Below, piece by piece: positions 54,001 to 63,000 of a stretch of 64,000 bases of DNA. Numbering within the stretch: position 1 is the first letter of the stretch; the number at the start of each line of letters is the position of its first letter. The stretch is taken from IMG/VR virus record IMGVR_UViG_2531839664_000027. One strand, given 5' to 3'. This DNA comes from a virus. Its lineage: Duplodnaviria; Heunggongvirae; Uroviricota; Caudoviricetes. Position numbers: made by a program.

Positions 54001-57000
54001 ATTTCAAGCCGAAGCAGCAGGGACTTTCTGCGGAACAACTTCAGAAAGGAGCCAGCCAGGTAGCGATAAAAGTTGCACAGGACGGTGGTGATGCACAGGG
54101 AGCCGTGACGCAATATTACGCCTCGATGGGACTGCCGCAGTATCAGCAGAAAATTCAGCAGCAAAAAATTCAACAAGTGATTACCAGTTGGGCGGGTGAT
54201 GATCCGGATAAGCAGGCATTCGCCAGAGAAGTGGCCTCCCGTCAGCCAGAAATGCTGGAGCCTCAGAATCAGAAATTGCTGGAAAACGGGTATGCGAATT
54301 TTCTCCGTATTCAAAAGGCTAAGAGTGAACAGGCCAGAGATGATAGCGCAGCCTCTGCATCTGAGTTTATCCGTGGACTGAAACAGAATTACGCGCAGTA
54401 ATTCACCATTCCCGTTAATACCATTTCCTGATACCCGGTCATTGTGCCGGGTTTTTTTATGGAGTCTGTATGGCTTTTTCAGATGAACAGCGCCCTGAAG
54501 CGCAATTGGGTAACCAGAACCGTAACAGCCTGAACATTCAGCAGCCTGGCGAGACAGACAGCTATGATGCGTTTTTCTCCGACCCCAATCGCTGGAAGGA
54601 TAACAGCACGTCGTTCAGCCTGGGCGATGTATTACCAACTATAGGGAAGGGGGCCGCTCAGTCCGTCCGCGGAACAGGGGAAATGGCCCGTGGACTCGGT
54701 GATGCGATGATTCAAAGCCCAGTGAAAACAGGGGCGCGTATTTTAAATGAGTTCAGCCGTATGGGGCTGCCGGGTGTCGCAACTGTTCAGGATATTTTTG
54801 CCGGTGGCAGCAAGGGGGCTGATGAGGTCATCGATACCCTGCCTGATGGAAAAAACGCGGTCACTGATACTGTCGGTAAAGGTCTGAAGGTCACCGGTAA
54901 GGCTGTCAGTGATGGTGCTGAAGCCTCGGATGAATGGCTGACCGGTAAGATGTCGCCGGGTGCTGTTCGTGCGCTGAATACGCCGATGACCGAAGGCTAT
55001 GATGATTCTGCGGTCTGGGTGGCGAAGGGTGTAAACCTGATTGGTGCGCTTGTACCTGATATGGTTGCTGGCAGTGTGGCTAAAAAGGTGGGTGATGTCA
55101 CACTGCGAAAAATGCTGACCGCCGGGCTGGAGAAAAAATACATCGCGGCAGGGGTGCAGCCGGAAAGAGCCACAGCACTGGCAGCAGAAGCTGTTGATAA
55201 AAAAATGCCTGATTTATTCCAGGCAGGGGTTATCGCATCTTCAACTGCCAGCGCACAGGGGCAGAGTGCAATGGCAGCAGCTGATGCTGTTCTTAACGCT
55301 GATTATTCTGAGCTGGCGAAGTCACCGAAATTCCAGCAGACATTTTTGTCAATTGATGCAGATCCGCAACACGCACAGCTTACTGACCGTCAGAAAATGG
55401 ACCTGGCAAAAGAGCGCGTGGCGGATGAGGTGCGCGCGCAGCTGGCAACCGATCCGGAATTGCTGGCTGTTAATGTCGCAGCGGCAAAACTGGGTGACGC
55501 ACAGCTGTTTAATCTGGCGATGCGGGGCACGGCGAAGACTGTTAAAAGCGGCATGATCAGAAACGCCACTGAACAGGGGGCGATTAATGCGGCGCAGGGC
55601 GGCTATTCACGCTATCAGGAAAACATGGCATTACGTGAGACCGCCGGAATGGATGTGTCGCCGTGGGAGGGCGTGGCTGACGCAACGATCGAAGGTGGTA
55701 CTCTTGGTGCTGTGATGGGGGCTCCATTCGGTGCGGTTGCCGGATATCGTGGCAGACGTCAGGCGGCAGATGAAGCCGCCATGCGTGAGGCTGAAGACGT
55801 ACAGCAGGGTGAAGCAGCCCCGCAACCCGAACCGGTTGATCCGGTGGCGCAGCACCGTGAATCCATGCAGGGAATGAATCGCGAGCAGCTTCTGGAACAG
55901 TATGCTGATGCGGATATGGCACCTGAGGGAGACACGTCTGCCGTTCATCGCCGGGAAGCCGCCAGCCAGCTGTTGAATGAACTGGATGAACAGGCGAAGC
56001 GACAGGCGGTGATGGATGAGCTGAAGGCGAAGCCGCGTCCTGAACTGCTTGAGGAATACCGCAGACTCAGCCTGAAGGAAGGGCGTACTGAGACTGAAGA
56101 GCAGCAGTTACAGGCTATCCGTGATGTGCTTCGCCCTCAGCAGGAGGCCAGACCGGAGGCACAGCCAGAAAATACAGATGATGGCGACGGGAGTATTTAT
56201 CCGACGGTGCGGTTCCGCGATCCGGATGAAGTGCGTATTGAAATTAACGGGAGTGGCGCGTCCAGACCAGCGGAACGCATTGAAAAGGTGCGTCCGGACA
56301 ACCGTTATTTCACGGATGAGAAAAGCGCTATGGGTAGCGATGTTTTTCGCAATGCCAGCGCCACCGGCCTGAAACCGTCCGTAGTGAAGAAAGGTGAGAA
56401 TCAGTATGCCGTTGAAATGGATAATCCTGCGTTCTCTGAAGATGTGGCAACGGAAACCATTAACACCCTGGCTGACGGAGAGCGTATTACTGATGCTGAT
56501 CCGATGGAGCAGCCAGCGTTCATGCGTGACCCGCGATTCCGGGGTTTTACGGGAGATGATACAGAAGTGCAGGCCCGCCTTGCCCGTGGCAACGTGCCGA
56601 CGGCGGAAGAGCTGGTGCGTTCACAGATGGCTGAAGGTGATGCCGGTCCGACAGCTCAGGAGTTAACTGAGCGTCCGCGTCTGCCCGCCCCCGGCGATAT
56701 TCATCCCGGACAGGGATATCCGTTACCGGGAGAAGTGGCGCGTACGCCGGATGAAAATCAGGCCGGACGTGGTGGTCGTTTTACCATAACCGGTGAGGTT
56801 AAGGGCCAGAGTTTCCAGAAAGGACGTGCTCCGGCACCGGAAAACGCCGCTGGTCGCCAGGGGGAAACACTCGAGGGTGAAACGGTTCGTCGGGGTCTGC
56901 CGTCACCGGATGCGCAGAACGCGACAGCACCGGTACGTGAAGGGCTACCGGCTCCTGACATTGCGCGTAATGTTCGTATGCCTCAGCCTGAATCACTTCC

Positions 57001-60000: not shown

Positions 60001-63000
60001 CCTTCTGCACAGAGGGCTCCAATTGCCCAAAGGGGAACATTCTTATCGCGGCTCTGCGGATAAAATACTCTATCCTGAAGATATTCGCAAGGGGCCGTAT
60101 TACTCCCGTACCAGCAGTCTGACACCGGAAGAGACAATTGCATCGCGTTTTGTGCGCCAGATGCAGGATAAATTCCAGGTGCTGAAAGCTGTTCAGGAGA
60201 ATATCCGTAAAACTGGCGGCAAAGTGGACGACAGTAACAACGCTTATATGGCGGAAGAACTCTTCCACGGGAAGGCGGAAAACGACCTGAACGTGATGAA
60301 GGAGCGCTACGTTCAGCCACTGGCTAAATTACTGGCGGACTACAAAATTGCGCAGGCCGATCTGGATGAGTACCTCTACGCCCGTCACGCGCCGGAACGT
60401 AACGCGCATATCGCGAAAATCAACCCGAAAATGCCGGACGGCGGTTCGGGGATGACCAACGCGGAAGCGGCGGAAATCATGCAGCGTGTACGTAACAGTG
60501 GCAAACAGGCACAGTATGACCGTCTGGCAGGGATTATTGACGATATGCTGGCCCGTCGCCGTGAGCTTATCCGTGAGGCCGGACTTGAAGAGAACGGTGT
60601 GGTGGATGCCTGGCAGAACGCCTACCGTTACTACGTTCCCCTGAAAGGTCAGGATGTTGACGGTGTGGTGTCACTGCCCCGTACAGGTAAGGGCTTCACC
60701 ATCGGCGGACGTGAAAGCAGGCAGGCCATGGGGCGTGCATCCCGGGCACAGTCTCCGTCCACTCAGGCGATACAGGACCTGAGCGAATCGCTGATCCGCC
60801 ATCGCAAAAACGAAGTGGGTAACGCCTTCCTGAAACTGGTGCAGGATAATCCCGACAAGGATTACTGGCAGGTATTCACCGATGACAGACCGGATACCAT
60901 GCGGACGATTGCAGAGCGCAAGGACCAGGAAACTGGTGAAACCATTCGCGAAGTTGTCGAACGCCCTGTACCGATGGCAATGATGGCAGACCGGTACTTC
61001 ACCACCAAAAAGAACGGCAAAACGTACTACATCAAACTCCATGATCCGCGCCTGATGCGTGCGATGAAGAATATGGGACCGGAAACCAGTAACGCCGTAA
61101 TCCGCACGCTGGGGAAAGTTAACCGCTTCCTGGCAACGGTGAACACGTCGTATAACCCGGAATTCCTGGTCAGTAACTTCATCCGTGACGTGCAGACGGC
61201 GGTGATGAACCTGAAGGCGGAGCAGGGAAGGAGCGACGGCAAACTGAAAGGGCTGGATAACTTATCCGCACTGGCTGTGGTGAAAGACAGCCGGTCTGCC
61301 ATGTCTGCCGTATACGCCAGTCTGCGTGGTAAAACCCTCACGGGCAACGGTGCGCAGTGGCAGAAGGTGTGGAAAGAGTTTGTTGAGGACGGAGGTAAAA
61401 CCGGCTGGTTTAACATGGGTGACCTTGAAGGCCAGCAGAAGGAAATGGATCGCCTTGTATCGCTGGCGAAGGGAGGATGGAAAGGCCAGAGTATCGGTGC
61501 ATGGAATTCGTTCCTTAACCTTGTCGAGGATGCCAACGGGGCGGTTGAAAACGCTCTGCGTCTTTCTGCCTATAAACACGCCCGTGATGCCGGTTTGTCA
61601 CGCCAGCAGGCGGCGTCTCTTGCCAAAAACATGACGGTGAACTTTAACCGTCGTGGTGAGCAGGGAGCGCTGATGAACTCGCTGTACATGTTCGCCAACG
61701 CCAGCATTCAGGGGACCGCAAACCTGGTGAGAACGCTCGGACATCTTAATGGCGACGGGCCGTTACTGGAGCGCCTTCGCTGGAAGAATCTCAATGTACC
61801 GCAGAAAATCGCGCTTGCAGCTGTGGGAGCGGGTTATCTGCTTGGCTCGCTTAACCGCAGTGTTGCGGGGGAGGATGATGACGGGGTTAACTGGTATGAC
61901 AAGGTGCCGTCTCATGTGAAAGAGCGTAACCTCGTCATTATGAAATCGGTGTTCGGGGGCAAGGCCGGAGAGTACTGGAGTATTCCTCTGCCTTACGGGT
62001 ACAACGTTTTCTTCCTGCTCGGGCATACTGCTGAAGGTGTGGCGGCGGGTGACCTGACGGCGTCCCGTGCTGCCGGTAATGTTGTTGGTGGTGTGCTTGG
62101 TGCATTCAGCCCGATTGGCAGTGAGACGTCGGAAACACTGTCCGGGGCATTGCTGAAAAATGCAGCGCCGACCATTCTGCGTCCGTTTGCGAACCTTGCC
62201 ATGAATGAAAACTTCATGGGGGCGCAGATTTACCAGGAGAACATGCCGTTTGGTACACCAAAACCTGACAGCCAGCTGGGAAGACGTTCAACGCCAGAAG
62301 CGTACAAGGCGTTTGCATCCTGGCTGAATGCGTTCTCTGGTGGCAGCCAGTACCGTCCCGGCGCGGTGGATATCACACCGGAATCGCTGAAATACTGGGT
62401 GGACTATATCTCCGGAGGGACAGGGCGCTTCATTTCCAAAACCACGGATGCGGCGGTGAAATCGCTGAATGGTATTGATATACCGGAGCAGCAGGTGCCC
62501 TTCCTGGGGAAAATTTCAGGTGAGGTGATGCCGTATGCTGACCAGCAGAAGATGTACGACCGGATGACAGAGGTTGCGCAGTATCACGCAGAGCTGAAGA
62601 GTCTGACCGGTGCAGAAAGAACGGCGTTCATTGACGAGAACAACGGAAAATTGTCGATGAACGGGCTTATGCAGGATACCCGGAAGAGACTGAAGGATTT
62701 GCGTAAACAGCGTGATGCCATTTACGCCGACAGTACTCTCAGTCTGGCGCAACAGTCGGCGATGGTGAAATCGGTTGAGCGGGATATGAAAATTGCCGTG
62801 GATCGGTTTAACCGCGAGTACAACAAAAAAGTGGGAGTGGAGTAAAGAACATGCCCCCGTACGGAAGTGCGGGGCATGCTTAACGGGATGTGTACATAAA
62901 TGGGTACTGATATGACGATTATTTCGGCGCTCTCTGTATTTAAATCAATGACTTAATACTTATATTCATTATATCCATTTAACTAAGAGGACAATGCGGC

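What the first reader, a model, noticed from the sequence alone, without database searches (positions are those of the whole stretch)
54470..62845. 2791-aa giant polyvalent protein with an HExxH metallopeptidase-like motif as the last virion-module gene
An uninterrupted 8.4-kb ORF follows the small virion proteins. It contains an HEWFH motif (aa ~1282) in a segment resembling zincin-like domains of polyvalent phage and conjugative-element proteins, plus several other globular regions separated by Pro/Glu/Arg-rich linkers. In short-tailed phages such giant proteins are usually ejected into the host with the DNA and can carry anti-defence or host-takeover enzymes. The domain content of this one is unassigned from sequence alone.
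Basis: partly seen in the sequence, partly recalled or inferred. Interest (0 to 1): 0.65.

Follow-up and report, generated by a model that had tools for sequence, protein, structure and literature searches.

The report
Giant ejected protein of Shiga-toxin phage
The 2,791-residue gene is real and already known: it is the essential giant virion protein of short-tailed Shiga-toxin phages, most likely shot into the host with the DNA and carrying two protease-like domains and one RNase-like domain, and here it turns out to share its front end with the injected RNA polymerase of phage N4.

Summary
Observation confirmed. ORF 54470-62845 (+) encodes 2,791 aa (308 kDa) with HEWFH at aa 1282. The window is an E. 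coli O121:H19 Stx2a prophage. The gene is 933W L0134, Sp5 ORF80 and phi24B gp47 (95-100% identical). It is already known: essential in Sp5 (Mondal 2016), detected in phi24B virions but invisible by cryo-EM and proposed there as an ejection protein (2026 preprint), and named 'LPD38 domain-containing protein' by PGAP.

What I add:
1. Full architecture: N-domain, ~450-aa P/E/R-rich linker, LPD5-zincin(HEWFH)-LPD1, a second mini-zincin (HEIIH) that Pfam misses, MuF_C, and a ~900-aa helical C-module with no solved homologue.
3. The N-domain is homologous to the membrane-binding NTD of N4 virion RNA polymerase (hhalign 97.7%). The mini-zincin matches N4 CTD-C1 (92%). The C-module does not match N4 C2.
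4. The protein has zero cysteines. So do 62 of 69 family giants, 11 of 11 N4-like vRNAPs, N4 gp51/52 and T7 gp15/16.

Interpretation supported; enzyme activities and ejection remain untested. Interest moderate.

The parts
54470..62845 (+). Giant ORF, 2,791 aa, 308 kDa, 0 Cys. It equals 933W L0134, Sp5 ORF80/ECs1242 and phi24B gp47.
54433..54464 (+). Terminator-like hairpin (54433-54452) with a T-run, followed by GGAG (54461-54464) 6 nt before the ATG. The longer start annotated in 933W and phi24B overlaps this hairpin.
54470..55789 (+). N-domain (aa 1-440; best conserved aa ~170-435). It always lies at the extreme N-terminus of giant phage proteins and is homologous to the N4 vRNAP NTD.
   Evidence: 108 hits, of which 69 are giants. 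HMM hits to vRNAPs of up to 66.5 bits; hhalign probability 97.7%, E 1.8e-12.
55001..55090 (+). Hydrophobic segment aa 178-207 (DSAVWVAKGVNLIGALVPDMVAGSVA...). It aligns with the predicted membrane-spanning helix region of N4 vRNAP (aa 224-278).
55790..57139 (+). P/E/R/A-rich, disorder-prone linker (aa 441-890). It is analogous to the ~100-aa low-complexity linker after the N4 NTD.
57152..57604 (+). Conserved pre-LPD5 domain (aa ~895-1045, motif IxDFGE...). It co-occurs with LPD5-zincin-LPD1.
57614..58063 (+). LPD5 domain (aa 1049-1198).
   Evidence: E 5e-43
58064..58543 (+). Zincin core 1 (aa ~1199-1358), with NLTKxxGxGxLAHEWFH. The HEWFH codons are at 58313-58327.
58544..58783 (+). LPD1 (aa 1359-1438). 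It carries the near-invariant E1373 and E1380 (EMAARAFE), which are candidates for the third zinc ligand.
58922..59383 (+). Second mini-zincin, 'Zn2' (aa 1485-1638). HEIIH is at aa 1549 (nt 59114-59128) and a conserved E1605 lies downstream. It is present in most family giants and is homologous to N4 vRNAP CTD-C1.
   Evidence: (hhalign probability 92.3%)
59537..59989 (+). MuF_C / PBECR domain (aa ~1690-1840; Pfam match aa 1748-1837). The predicted fold is RelE/BrnT-like. H1750, H1799 and S1814 are conserved.
60137..62842 (+). C-terminal module (aa ~1890-2791), mostly alpha-helical. It contains LPD38 (aa 2474-2679) and a hydrophobic helix at aa 2443-2465. It has 0 Cys in all 46 homologues and no solved structural homologue.
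50095..51458 (+). Three small Cys-free ORFs (217, 148 and 83 aa), orthologous to phi24B gp51, gp50 and 24B_46. gp51 and gp50 were detected in phi24B virions. These are candidate companion ejection proteins.
51469..54401 (+). Homologue of 933W L0133, Sp5 ORF79 and phi24B gp48 (421 aa, essential in Sp5, 0 Cys). Here an IS600 insertion at 51711-53378 splits it.

Best explanation
The gene encodes a virion-internal 'polyvalent' ejection protein of the 933W/Sp5/phi24B type of short-tailed Stx phage. By my crude estimate, roughly 15-20 copies are packed in the capsid in a loosely folded form. After the tail needle is released, the protein is expelled through the tail channel with or ahead of the DNA.

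Proposed roles of the parts:
- The N-domain is homologous to the lipid-binding NTD of N4 vRNAP. It inserts at or associates with the inner membrane.
- The ~450-aa disordered linker tethers the rest of the protein to the N-domain.
- The remaining domains thread through as beads on a string. They are an LF/MtfA-like zincin flanked by LPD5 and LPD1, a second mini-zincin, a RelE-like PBECR domain and a 900-aa helical C-module.
- The total absence of cysteine is an adaptation to passage through the oxidising periplasm and a narrow channel.
- The zincins most likely process the polyprotein itself or a host protein.
- The PBECR domain most likely cleaves or binds RNA early in infection.
- The conserved C-module is the common carrier or encapsidation part. 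In relatives it is fused to other cargo: methyltransferase, ART, InPase, lysozyme and RelA/SpoT.

Shown: the gene is essential; the protein is in virions; the domain homologies, fold matches and motif conservation hold. Inferred: ejection, membrane insertion, enzyme activities and enzyme substrates.
For: Identity of the gene.

Genetics: the Sp5 dORF80 mutant still excises and packages DNA but gives no plaques or lysogens, and it is complemented.

Virion location: phi24B gp47 has the second-highest spectral count in virions and runs mainly in the highest-MW gel slices. It is absent from the cryo-EM model. Unassigned lumen density disappears on ejection. My rough estimate is 15-23 copies per virion.

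Domains:
- Pfam finds LPD5, LPD1, MuF_C and LPD38.
- HExxH and ExxARAFE are at least 90% conserved.
- Zn2 shows HExxH followed by a downstream E.
- The PBECR-type His and Ser residues are conserved.

Link to N4:
- N-domain versus vRNAP NTD: hhalign probability 97.7%, E 1.8e-12; HMM scores of 66.5 bits to SP-058 and 31.9 bits to N4, against at most 2.4 bits for shuffles.
- Zn2 versus N4 C1: probability 92.3%.
- The N4 NTD binds lipid nanodiscs, and vRNAP is ejected.

Cysteine:
- The giant has 0 of 2,791 against about 23 expected.
- 62 of 69 family giants have none.
- All 46 C-module homologues have none.
- 11 of 11 vRNAPs have none, over 38,130 residues.
- N4 gp51 and gp52 and T7 gp15 and gp16 have none.
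- The upstream ORFs have none.

The C-module is fused to varied cargo in relatives.
Against: - Mondal et al. saw no tail-fibre antibody binding on dORF80 particles and concluded the gene has a tail-assembly role. Classical ejection-protein mutants of P22 and T7 still carry tails (my own knowledge).
- Nobody has shown ejection, membrane insertion, zinc binding, proteolysis or RNase activity for this protein.
- The C-module shows no similarity to N4 CTD-C2 (hhalign probability below 1%) or to any PDB structure, so its role is a guess.
- N4 vRNAP is packaged unprocessed, so an HExxH domain need not act as a protease.
- Fifteen to twenty copies of a 308-kDa protein is a large load to translocate, and that estimate is crude.
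Confidence: 0.7

Rival explanations
1. It is a tail-assembly or structural tail protein, as concluded for Sp5 ORF80. Mondal et al. suggested an energy-using AAA+ type factor needed to build or attach the tail.
For: dORF80 particles have DNA-filled heads of normal appearance but no anti-tail-fibre labelling. Mondal et al. reported a COG1483 AAA+ hit.
Against: There is no Walker A motif, and no ATPase family appears in Pfam or NCBIfam. There are no repeats. The phi24B cryo-EM model accounts for the portal, adaptors, nozzle, fibres and needle without this protein, although mass spectrometry shows it is abundant. The immuno-EM negative result was reported as 'data not shown'. Both views can be reconciled if an internal protein that occupies the portal and tail lumen is needed for stable tail attachment; this is my inference.
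Confidence: 0.15
2. Its main job is to breach the cell wall. The metallopeptidase digests peptidoglycan cross-links so that a trans-periplasmic conduit can form, as proposed in the phi24B preprint.
For: The phi24B authors propose this. Relatives with the same C-module carry LT_GEWL lysozyme domains, so some family members do have cell-wall enzymes.
Against: The preprint attributes the peptidase to MuF_C, which is a BECR RNase-type domain. The real zincins resemble cytoplasmic or protein-targeting enzymes (MtfA, lethal factor, PPEP, YbeY), not M23 or M15 cell-wall peptidases. Pfam finds no peptidoglycan-binding or hydrolase domain.
Confidence: 0.1
3. It is chiefly an injected anti-restriction or anti-defence effector, like P1 DarB.
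For: PHROG 10089, 'DarB-like antirestriction', matches aa 2349-2679. Polyvalent proteins as a class are proposed counter-defence carriers.
Against: The PHROG match covers only the LPD38 region. No methyltransferase or helicase domain is present, and PADLOC finds nothing. The gene is essential on a K-12 host, and its loss is not merely host-range limiting.
Confidence: 0.05

Closest known systems
Sp5 ORF80 (ECs1242), 933W L0134 and phi24B gp47
   Same: This is the same gene. It is 94-100% identical over the full length, in the same position at the end of the late operon. The literature shows it is essential and virion-associated.
   Different: In this O121:H19 prophage the essential neighbour (the ORF79/gp48 homologue) is split by IS600. 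The 933W genes downstream of L0134 are absent. The likely start codon lies 13 codons inside the start annotated in 933W and phi24B.
Phage polyvalent proteins (Iyer, Burroughs, Anand, de Souza & Aravind 2017)
   Same: It is a multi-domain protein with LPD5, LPD1, LPD38, a zincin MPTase and a PBECR (MuF_C) domain. It is encoded among late or virion genes and is predicted to be delivered with the DNA.
   Different: The paper text I searched does not mention 933W (0 occurrences) or the absence of cysteine (0 occurrences), and the N4 passages I read discuss only the C-terminal MPTase region, not the NTD. Pfam does not model the second mini-zincin in this protein.
Phage N4 virion RNA polymerase gp50 (Schitoviridae)
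   Same: Both are giant, Cys-free, encapsidated proteins that cryo-EM of the virion does not resolve. They share a homologous N-terminal domain (hhalign 97.7%), a low-complexity linker after it, a homologous HExxH mini-domain (92%) and a large helical C-terminal region.
   Different: This protein has no RNA polymerase domain. Its C-module is not detectably related to N4 CTD-C2. Its cargo is a zincin plus an RNase-like domain. Copy number is probably higher: about 15-23 against 4±1 for N4.
T7 gp16 (with gp14 and gp15) internal core and ejection proteins
   Same: It is the largest of a run of consecutive Cys-free internal virion proteins encoded in the order small, medium, giant, and it is essential for infectivity.
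Anthrax lethal factor, MtfA and PPEP zincins (gluzincin type)
   Same: They are the best structural matches to the central model, and they share HExxH plus a downstream Glu.

Membership tests
Phage-type polyvalent protein (Iyer et al. 2017) | Several unrelated effector-type or LPD domains in one polypeptide | tested here: met
   Pfam finds LPD5 (E 5e-43), LPD1 (7e-24), MuF_C (1e-17) and LPD38 (8e-49), all above their gathering scores.
Phage-type polyvalent protein (Iyer et al. 2017) | Encoded with virion or late genes and packaged in the particle | tested here: met
   It is the last gene of the late operon, after the tail and virion ORFs. The orthologue is abundant in phi24B virions by mass spectrometry.
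Phage-type polyvalent protein (Iyer et al. 2017) | Delivered into the host cell with the DNA | not testable with these tools
   There is only indirect support: N4 NTD homology, lack of cysteine, and lumen density lost on ejection.
Zincin (gluzincin-type) metallopeptidase, domain 1 (HEWFH) | Conserved HExxH with a downstream third ligand (Glu) | tested here: met
   H1282, E1283 and H1286 are at least 90% conserved. E1373 and E1380 are near-invariant or invariant across about 45 homologues down to 30% identity.
Zincin (gluzincin-type) metallopeptidase, domain 1 (HEWFH) | Zincin fold | tested here: met
Zincin (gluzincin-type) metallopeptidase, domain 1 (HEWFH) | Zinc binding and peptidase activity | not testable with these tools
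   No experiment exists. The NCBIfam CLCA_X match (E 1e-43) is below the family cut-off (149 against 260 bits).
Mini-zincin, domain 2 (HEIIH); N4 vRNAP CTD-C1-like | Conserved HExxH plus a downstream Glu, and homology to N4 C1 | tested here: met
PBECR / MuF_C (BECR-fold RNase) | Family profile match and BECR (RelE-like) fold | tested here: met
PBECR / MuF_C (BECR-fold RNase) | Active-site configuration: His in the N-terminal helix plus Ser/Thr in strand 4 | tested here: inconclusive
   H1750, H1799 and S1814 are about 88% conserved over 64 homologues, which fits the description. I could not verify their positions in the 3D model or any activity. The Mu MuF copy is said to be inactive.
N4-like virion RNA polymerase | T7-like single-subunit RNAP domain | tested here: not met
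   phmmer with N4 aa 998-2103 gives no match. Pfam finds no RNAP family.
N4-like virion RNA polymerase | Shared N-terminal (membrane-binding) domain | tested here: met
   hhalign gives probability 97.7%, E 1.8e-12 over 220 columns. HMM scores are 66.5 bits to SP-058 and 31.9 bits to N4. Shuffles score at most 2.4 bits.
N4-like virion RNA polymerase | CTD-C2 helical domain | tested here: not met
   hhalign of the C-module against vRNAP C2 or the whole CTD gives probability below 1%. HMM E-values are about 0.01.
P1 DarB anti-restriction protein | Methyltransferase and helicase domains | tested here: not met
   Only the LPD38 region matches the 'DarB-like' PHROG. Pfam finds no MTase or helicase.
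Tape-measure or fibre-like structural protein | Repetitive or coiled structural repeats and a role in tail length | tested here: not met
   The only tandem repeat reported is one marginal 25-nt array. The models show globular enzyme-like domains. The phage is short-tailed.
AAA+ ATPase (COG1483, per Mondal 2016) | Walker A / P-loop | tested here: not met
   There is no [AG]xxxxGK[ST] motif and no ATPase family hit.

The most novel reading that the evidence does not exclude
The Stx-phage giant protein is an RNA-polymerase-less relative of the N4 vRNAP type of ejection protein. It shares the membrane-inserting N-domain and the HExxH mini-domain.

Together with the four Cys-free virion proteins encoded just upstream (50095-54401), it forms an N4/T7-like ejectosome. 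This ejectosome injects about 15-20 copies of a lethal-factor-like protease and a RelE-like RNase into E. coli.

Complete avoidance of cysteine is a general sequence signature of proteins that must thread through a podovirus tail and the periplasm, and it could be used to predict ejection proteins. I did not find this signature or the NTD homology in the papers I read: 'cysteine' has 0 occurrences in Iyer 2017 and in Bellis 2026.
Probability: 0.5. Interest if true: 0.6.

Novelty: already known. Interest (0 to 1): 0.4.

Why it matters
Short-tailed Stx2a phages spread the toxin genes of EHEC. How they deliver DNA is poorly understood, and this one gene takes up about 14% of the phage genome.

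Placing it beside N4 vRNAP gives an experimental template: nanodisc binding of the NTD, bubblegrams and ejection assays. Defining two intact-looking zincins and an RNase-like domain gives concrete point mutants to test.

The cysteine-free signature may be a cheap predictor of ejected proteins in other podoviruses.

In this particular O121 prophage the neighbouring essential gene is broken by IS600. The prophage may therefore make toxin without producing infectious particles.

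Tried and rejected
- Sequence search of the whole protein and of the central-region profile against PDB sequences gave nothing significant.
- I tried to link the C-module to N4 CTD-C2 with iterated HMMs and with hhalign. Both failed, so I dropped the idea that the whole N4 chassis is shared. An apparent motif resemblance (VNFNRRGE.. against INYDRLPG..) was not supported and I rejected it.
- Single-sequence phmmer of N4 regions against the giants gave no hits. The NTD link is detectable only at profile level.
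- PADLOC gave no hits.
- The NCBIfam CLCA_X match is below its cut-off, so I used it only as a homology hint.
- Weak Pfam hits on sub-segments (Peptidase_M76, DEK_C, WXG100, DUF1233) had E above 0.03, and I ignored them.
- My first Zn2 conservation table was wrong because of a row-mapping bug. I corrected it. HMMs derived from alignment A3 contained a few misaligned rows and produced spurious 'LPD5_Zn_LPD1' and 'Zn2' hits inside the C-module. I disregarded these.
- PHROGs gave no function for the upstream small ORFs.

Full report
**1. Observation.**

The window holds an uninterrupted ORF at 54470..62845 (+) of 2,791 codons. The chance of such an open frame at this base composition is about 1e-56. 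A second HExxH (HEIIH) is at aa 1549. Only 0.03 HExxH motifs are expected from the composition.

Residues 441-890 are rich in Pro, Glu, Arg and Ala and are disorder-prone. There are essentially no tandem repeats.

**2. Identity of the locus.**

The 8.4-kb gene is 90-100% identical to 186 Stx-converting phage records. The surrounding DNA is 100% identical to E. coli O121:H19 chromosomes, where PGAP names the product 'LPD38 domain-containing protein'.

The gene is 96% identical in protein to 933W L0134 and 94.8% identical to phi24B gp47. It corresponds to Sp5 ORF80/ECs1242.

It is the last prophage gene. A host formate/nitrite-transporter-family gene follows on the other strand. The eight genes that follow L0134 in 933W are absent here.

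**3. What was already known.**

- Mondal et al. 2016 (PMC5155283) deleted Sp5 ORF80. The prophage still excised and packaged DNA into normal-looking heads. It made no plaques or lysogens, and the defect was complemented. No anti-tail-fibre labelling was seen, so they assigned a tail-formation role and noted a COG1483 AAA+ hint.
- Iyer et al. 2017 (PMC5512222) defined polyvalent proteins and the LPD, MPTase and PBECR domains.
- A 2026 preprint on phi24B (10.64898/2026.04.10.717836) found gp47 abundant in virions by mass spectrometry but invisible by cryo-EM. It proposed gp47 as an encapsidated ejection protein. It called MuF_C a metallopeptidase that would digest peptidoglycan.

The finding is therefore not new as a feature.

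**4. Domain anatomy.**

Pfam finds LPD5 (aa 1049-1198), LPD1 (aa 1359-1438), MuF_C (aa 1748-1837) and LPD38 (aa 2474-2679). NCBIfam CLCA_X covers aa 1180-1435 but scores below its cut-off.

*First zincin.* Alignment with about 45 homologues down to 30% identity shows NLTKxxGxGxLAHEWFHxLDNYF and ExxARAFE (E1373, E1380) as near-invariant. LPD5-C, the HExxH core and LPD1 therefore behave as one gluzincin-like module. A conserved domain precedes it, starting at about aa 895.

*Second zincin.* HEIIH aligns to a recurrent HExxH...E pattern (H1549, E1550, H1553, E1605). This is a mini-zincin that Pfam does not call.

The RNase-toxin matches fit MuF_C being a BECR-fold domain, as Iyer et al. state, and not a peptidase. 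Its H1750, H1799 and S1814 are conserved.

*C-terminal module.* Residues ~1890-2791 behave as one module. Homologues cover about 95% of it down to 33% identity. It occurs alone (P0046, 981 aa). It is also fused to other cargo: a methyltransferase, ART-PolyVal, LPD3, InPase and PBECR. Its model is confident (pLDDT 80.9, pTM 0.77) and mostly helical. It has no meaningful PDB match. It matches about 70 C-terminal fragments of long phage proteins in BFVD over nearly its full length, including ones named with LT_GEWL, RelA/SpoT and methylase.

*AAA+ idea.* No Walker A motif exists, so the AAA+ idea is unsupported.

**5. The N-terminal domain and the link to N4.**

An exhaustive HMMER search with aa 1-445 found 108 proteins. 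Sixty-nine of them are giants of 1,500-5,497 aa, with the domain always at the extreme N-terminus.

Local module HMMs show the family plan: N-domain, then variable cargo, then Zn2 (present in most), then sometimes MuF_C, then the C-module at the extreme C-terminus in at least 32.

A profile of this N-domain hits N4-like virion RNA polymerases:
- Salmonella phage SP-058: 66.5 bits.
- N4: 31.9 bits.
- Burkholderia phage HN01: 24.5 bits.
- Shuffled controls: at most 2.4 bits.

hhalign against an alignment of 11 vRNAP N-termini gives probability 97.7%, E 1.8e-12 over 220 columns. The giant's hydrophobic segment (aa ~188-207, within the aa 178-207 stretch listed under parts) aligns with the N4 region predicted to span membranes. 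Bellis et al. 2026 (PMC13434306) showed that the N4 NTD inserts into nanodiscs.

Zn2 is homologous to the HExxH subdomain C1 of the N4 CTD (hhalign probability 92.3%). The C-module is not detectably related to N4 C2 (probability below 1%). There is no RNAP domain.

The protein therefore works like N4 vRNAP in layout, but it is not a member of that family.

**6. Cysteine.**

| Protein set | Cys count |
|---|---|
| This giant | 0 of 2,791 (about 23 expected; P about 8e-11) |
| 46 C-module homologues | 0 in the aligned module of all 46 |
| 69 family giants | 62 have none, the rest 1-2 |
| 11 diverse vRNAPs | 0 in 38,130 residues |
| N4 gp51, gp52 | 0 of 644, 0 of 150 |
| T7 gp15, gp16 | 0 of 747, 0 of 1,318 |
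| Other proteins of N4 and T7 | most have Cys |

The four ORFs just upstream are also Cys-free (P about 7e-4). They are 217, 148 and 83 aa, plus the 421-aa ORF79/gp48 homologue. Three of them (the gp51, gp50 and gp48 orthologues) are mass-spectrometry-detected phi24B virion proteins that are missing from the cryo-EM model.

This parallels the small-to-giant gene order of T7 gp14-15-16 and N4 gp52-51-50. I read the lack of cysteine as a signature of passage through the tail channel and the oxidising periplasm. This is an inference.

**7. State in the virion.**

In the phi24B gel-slice data, gp47 peaks in slices 1-4, above the portal in slice 5. It is therefore mostly very large, not extensively processed.

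I normalised spectral counts to 12 portal copies. This gives about 15-23 copies per virion. The controls behave as follows: nozzle 4.7-6.2 (true value 6), spike 14-22 (true value 18), and MCP underestimated. The estimate is crude.

**8. Mechanism and rivals.**

*Best explanation (confidence 0.7).* It is an encapsidated, co-ejected polyvalent protein. Its N-domain engages the inner membrane, and its cargo acts early in infection. The cargo is two zincins and an RNase-like domain.

*Reconciling the Sp5 phenotype.* The missing tail labelling in dORF80 can be reconciled if the protein occupies the portal and adaptor lumen. phi24B shows unassigned density there that is lost on ejection. In that case it would stabilise tail attachment. 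This is an inference.

*Rivals:*
- A dedicated tail-assembly or ATPase role (0.15).
- A peptidoglycan-cutting peptidase (0.1).
- A DarB-like anti-restriction effector (0.05).

**9. Verdict.**

The gene is already known, and its ejection-protein reading is already in print.

The parts I did not find in the papers read are:
- The NTD and C1 homology to N4 vRNAP.
- The second zincin.
- The correction that MuF_C is RNase-like.
- The family-wide absence of cysteine.

Interest is moderate (0.4).

Noticed in passing
window 51711-53378: A 1,668-bp insertion relative to 933W carries an IS600 (IS3-family) transposase. It splits the homologue of 933W L0133, Sp5 ORF79 and phi24B gp48 into an 84-aa and a 345-aa piece. 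Sp5 ORF79 is essential, so this O121:H19 Stx2a prophage is probably unable to make infectious particles.
   Followed up: partly
window 51716-52515: There is a perfect 400-bp tandem duplication inside IS600 (51716-52015 equals 52116-52415, 100% identical). It gives two identical 100-aa orfA-like ORFs (51780..52082 and 52180..52482). The eight closest complete O121 genomes match over a span 400 bp shorter, so they lack the duplication. It may be an assembly artefact or a very recent event.
   Followed up: partly
window 50095-51458 and 51469-54401: The ORFs of 217, 148, 83 and 421 aa directly upstream of the giant gene are all cysteine-free. The ORFs before them have 3-9 Cys. Three of the four orthologues (gp51, gp50, gp48) are in phi24B virions by mass spectrometry but not in its cryo-EM model. 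The phi24B supplement labels gp48 'Transcription factor?'. These are candidate ejectosome partners.
   Followed up: partly
window 54433-54472: A terminator-like hairpin with a T7 run lies immediately before the giant gene's GGAG and ATG. The start annotated in 933W and phi24B lies 13 codons upstream (MPGHCAGFFYGVC), overlaps this hairpin and holds the only two Cys of the annotated protein. That start is probably mis-annotated.
   Followed up: partly
window 63068-64000 (- strand): A formate/nitrite-transporter-family gene lies about 220 bp after the giant ORF. This is probably the host chromosome junction. The 933W genes L0135-L0142, including hokW/sokW, are absent here.
   Followed up: no
window 24690-24941: Three tRNA genes (Met-CAT, Arg-TCG, Arg-TCT) form a cluster, as is typical upstream of stx2 in these phages.
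   Followed up: no
window 41822-43660 (GC peak at 42001-44000): There is a local GC of 0.59 and a strong AT skew over the 612-aa ORF homologous to the 933W tail-fibre gene. Mondal et al. describe collagen-like Gly-X-Y repeats in that gene. Many spurious antisense ORFs overlap it.
   Followed up: no
LC616040.1 (hit H1), positions 56536-66224: In this otherwise identical Stx2a phage record the giant gene matches in two pieces spanning 9,689 bp instead of 8,376 bp. This implies a ~1.3-kb insertion inside the giant gene, probably an IS.
   Followed up: no
L016 (phi24B HM208303), 6692-7015, 9167-9547 and 9898-10269 (- strand): Three small antisense ORFs are annotated inside the giant gene of phi24B (vb_24B_50c, 51c, 52c). 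The window has comparable mechanical antisense ORFs. They are most likely annotation artefacts.
   Followed up: no
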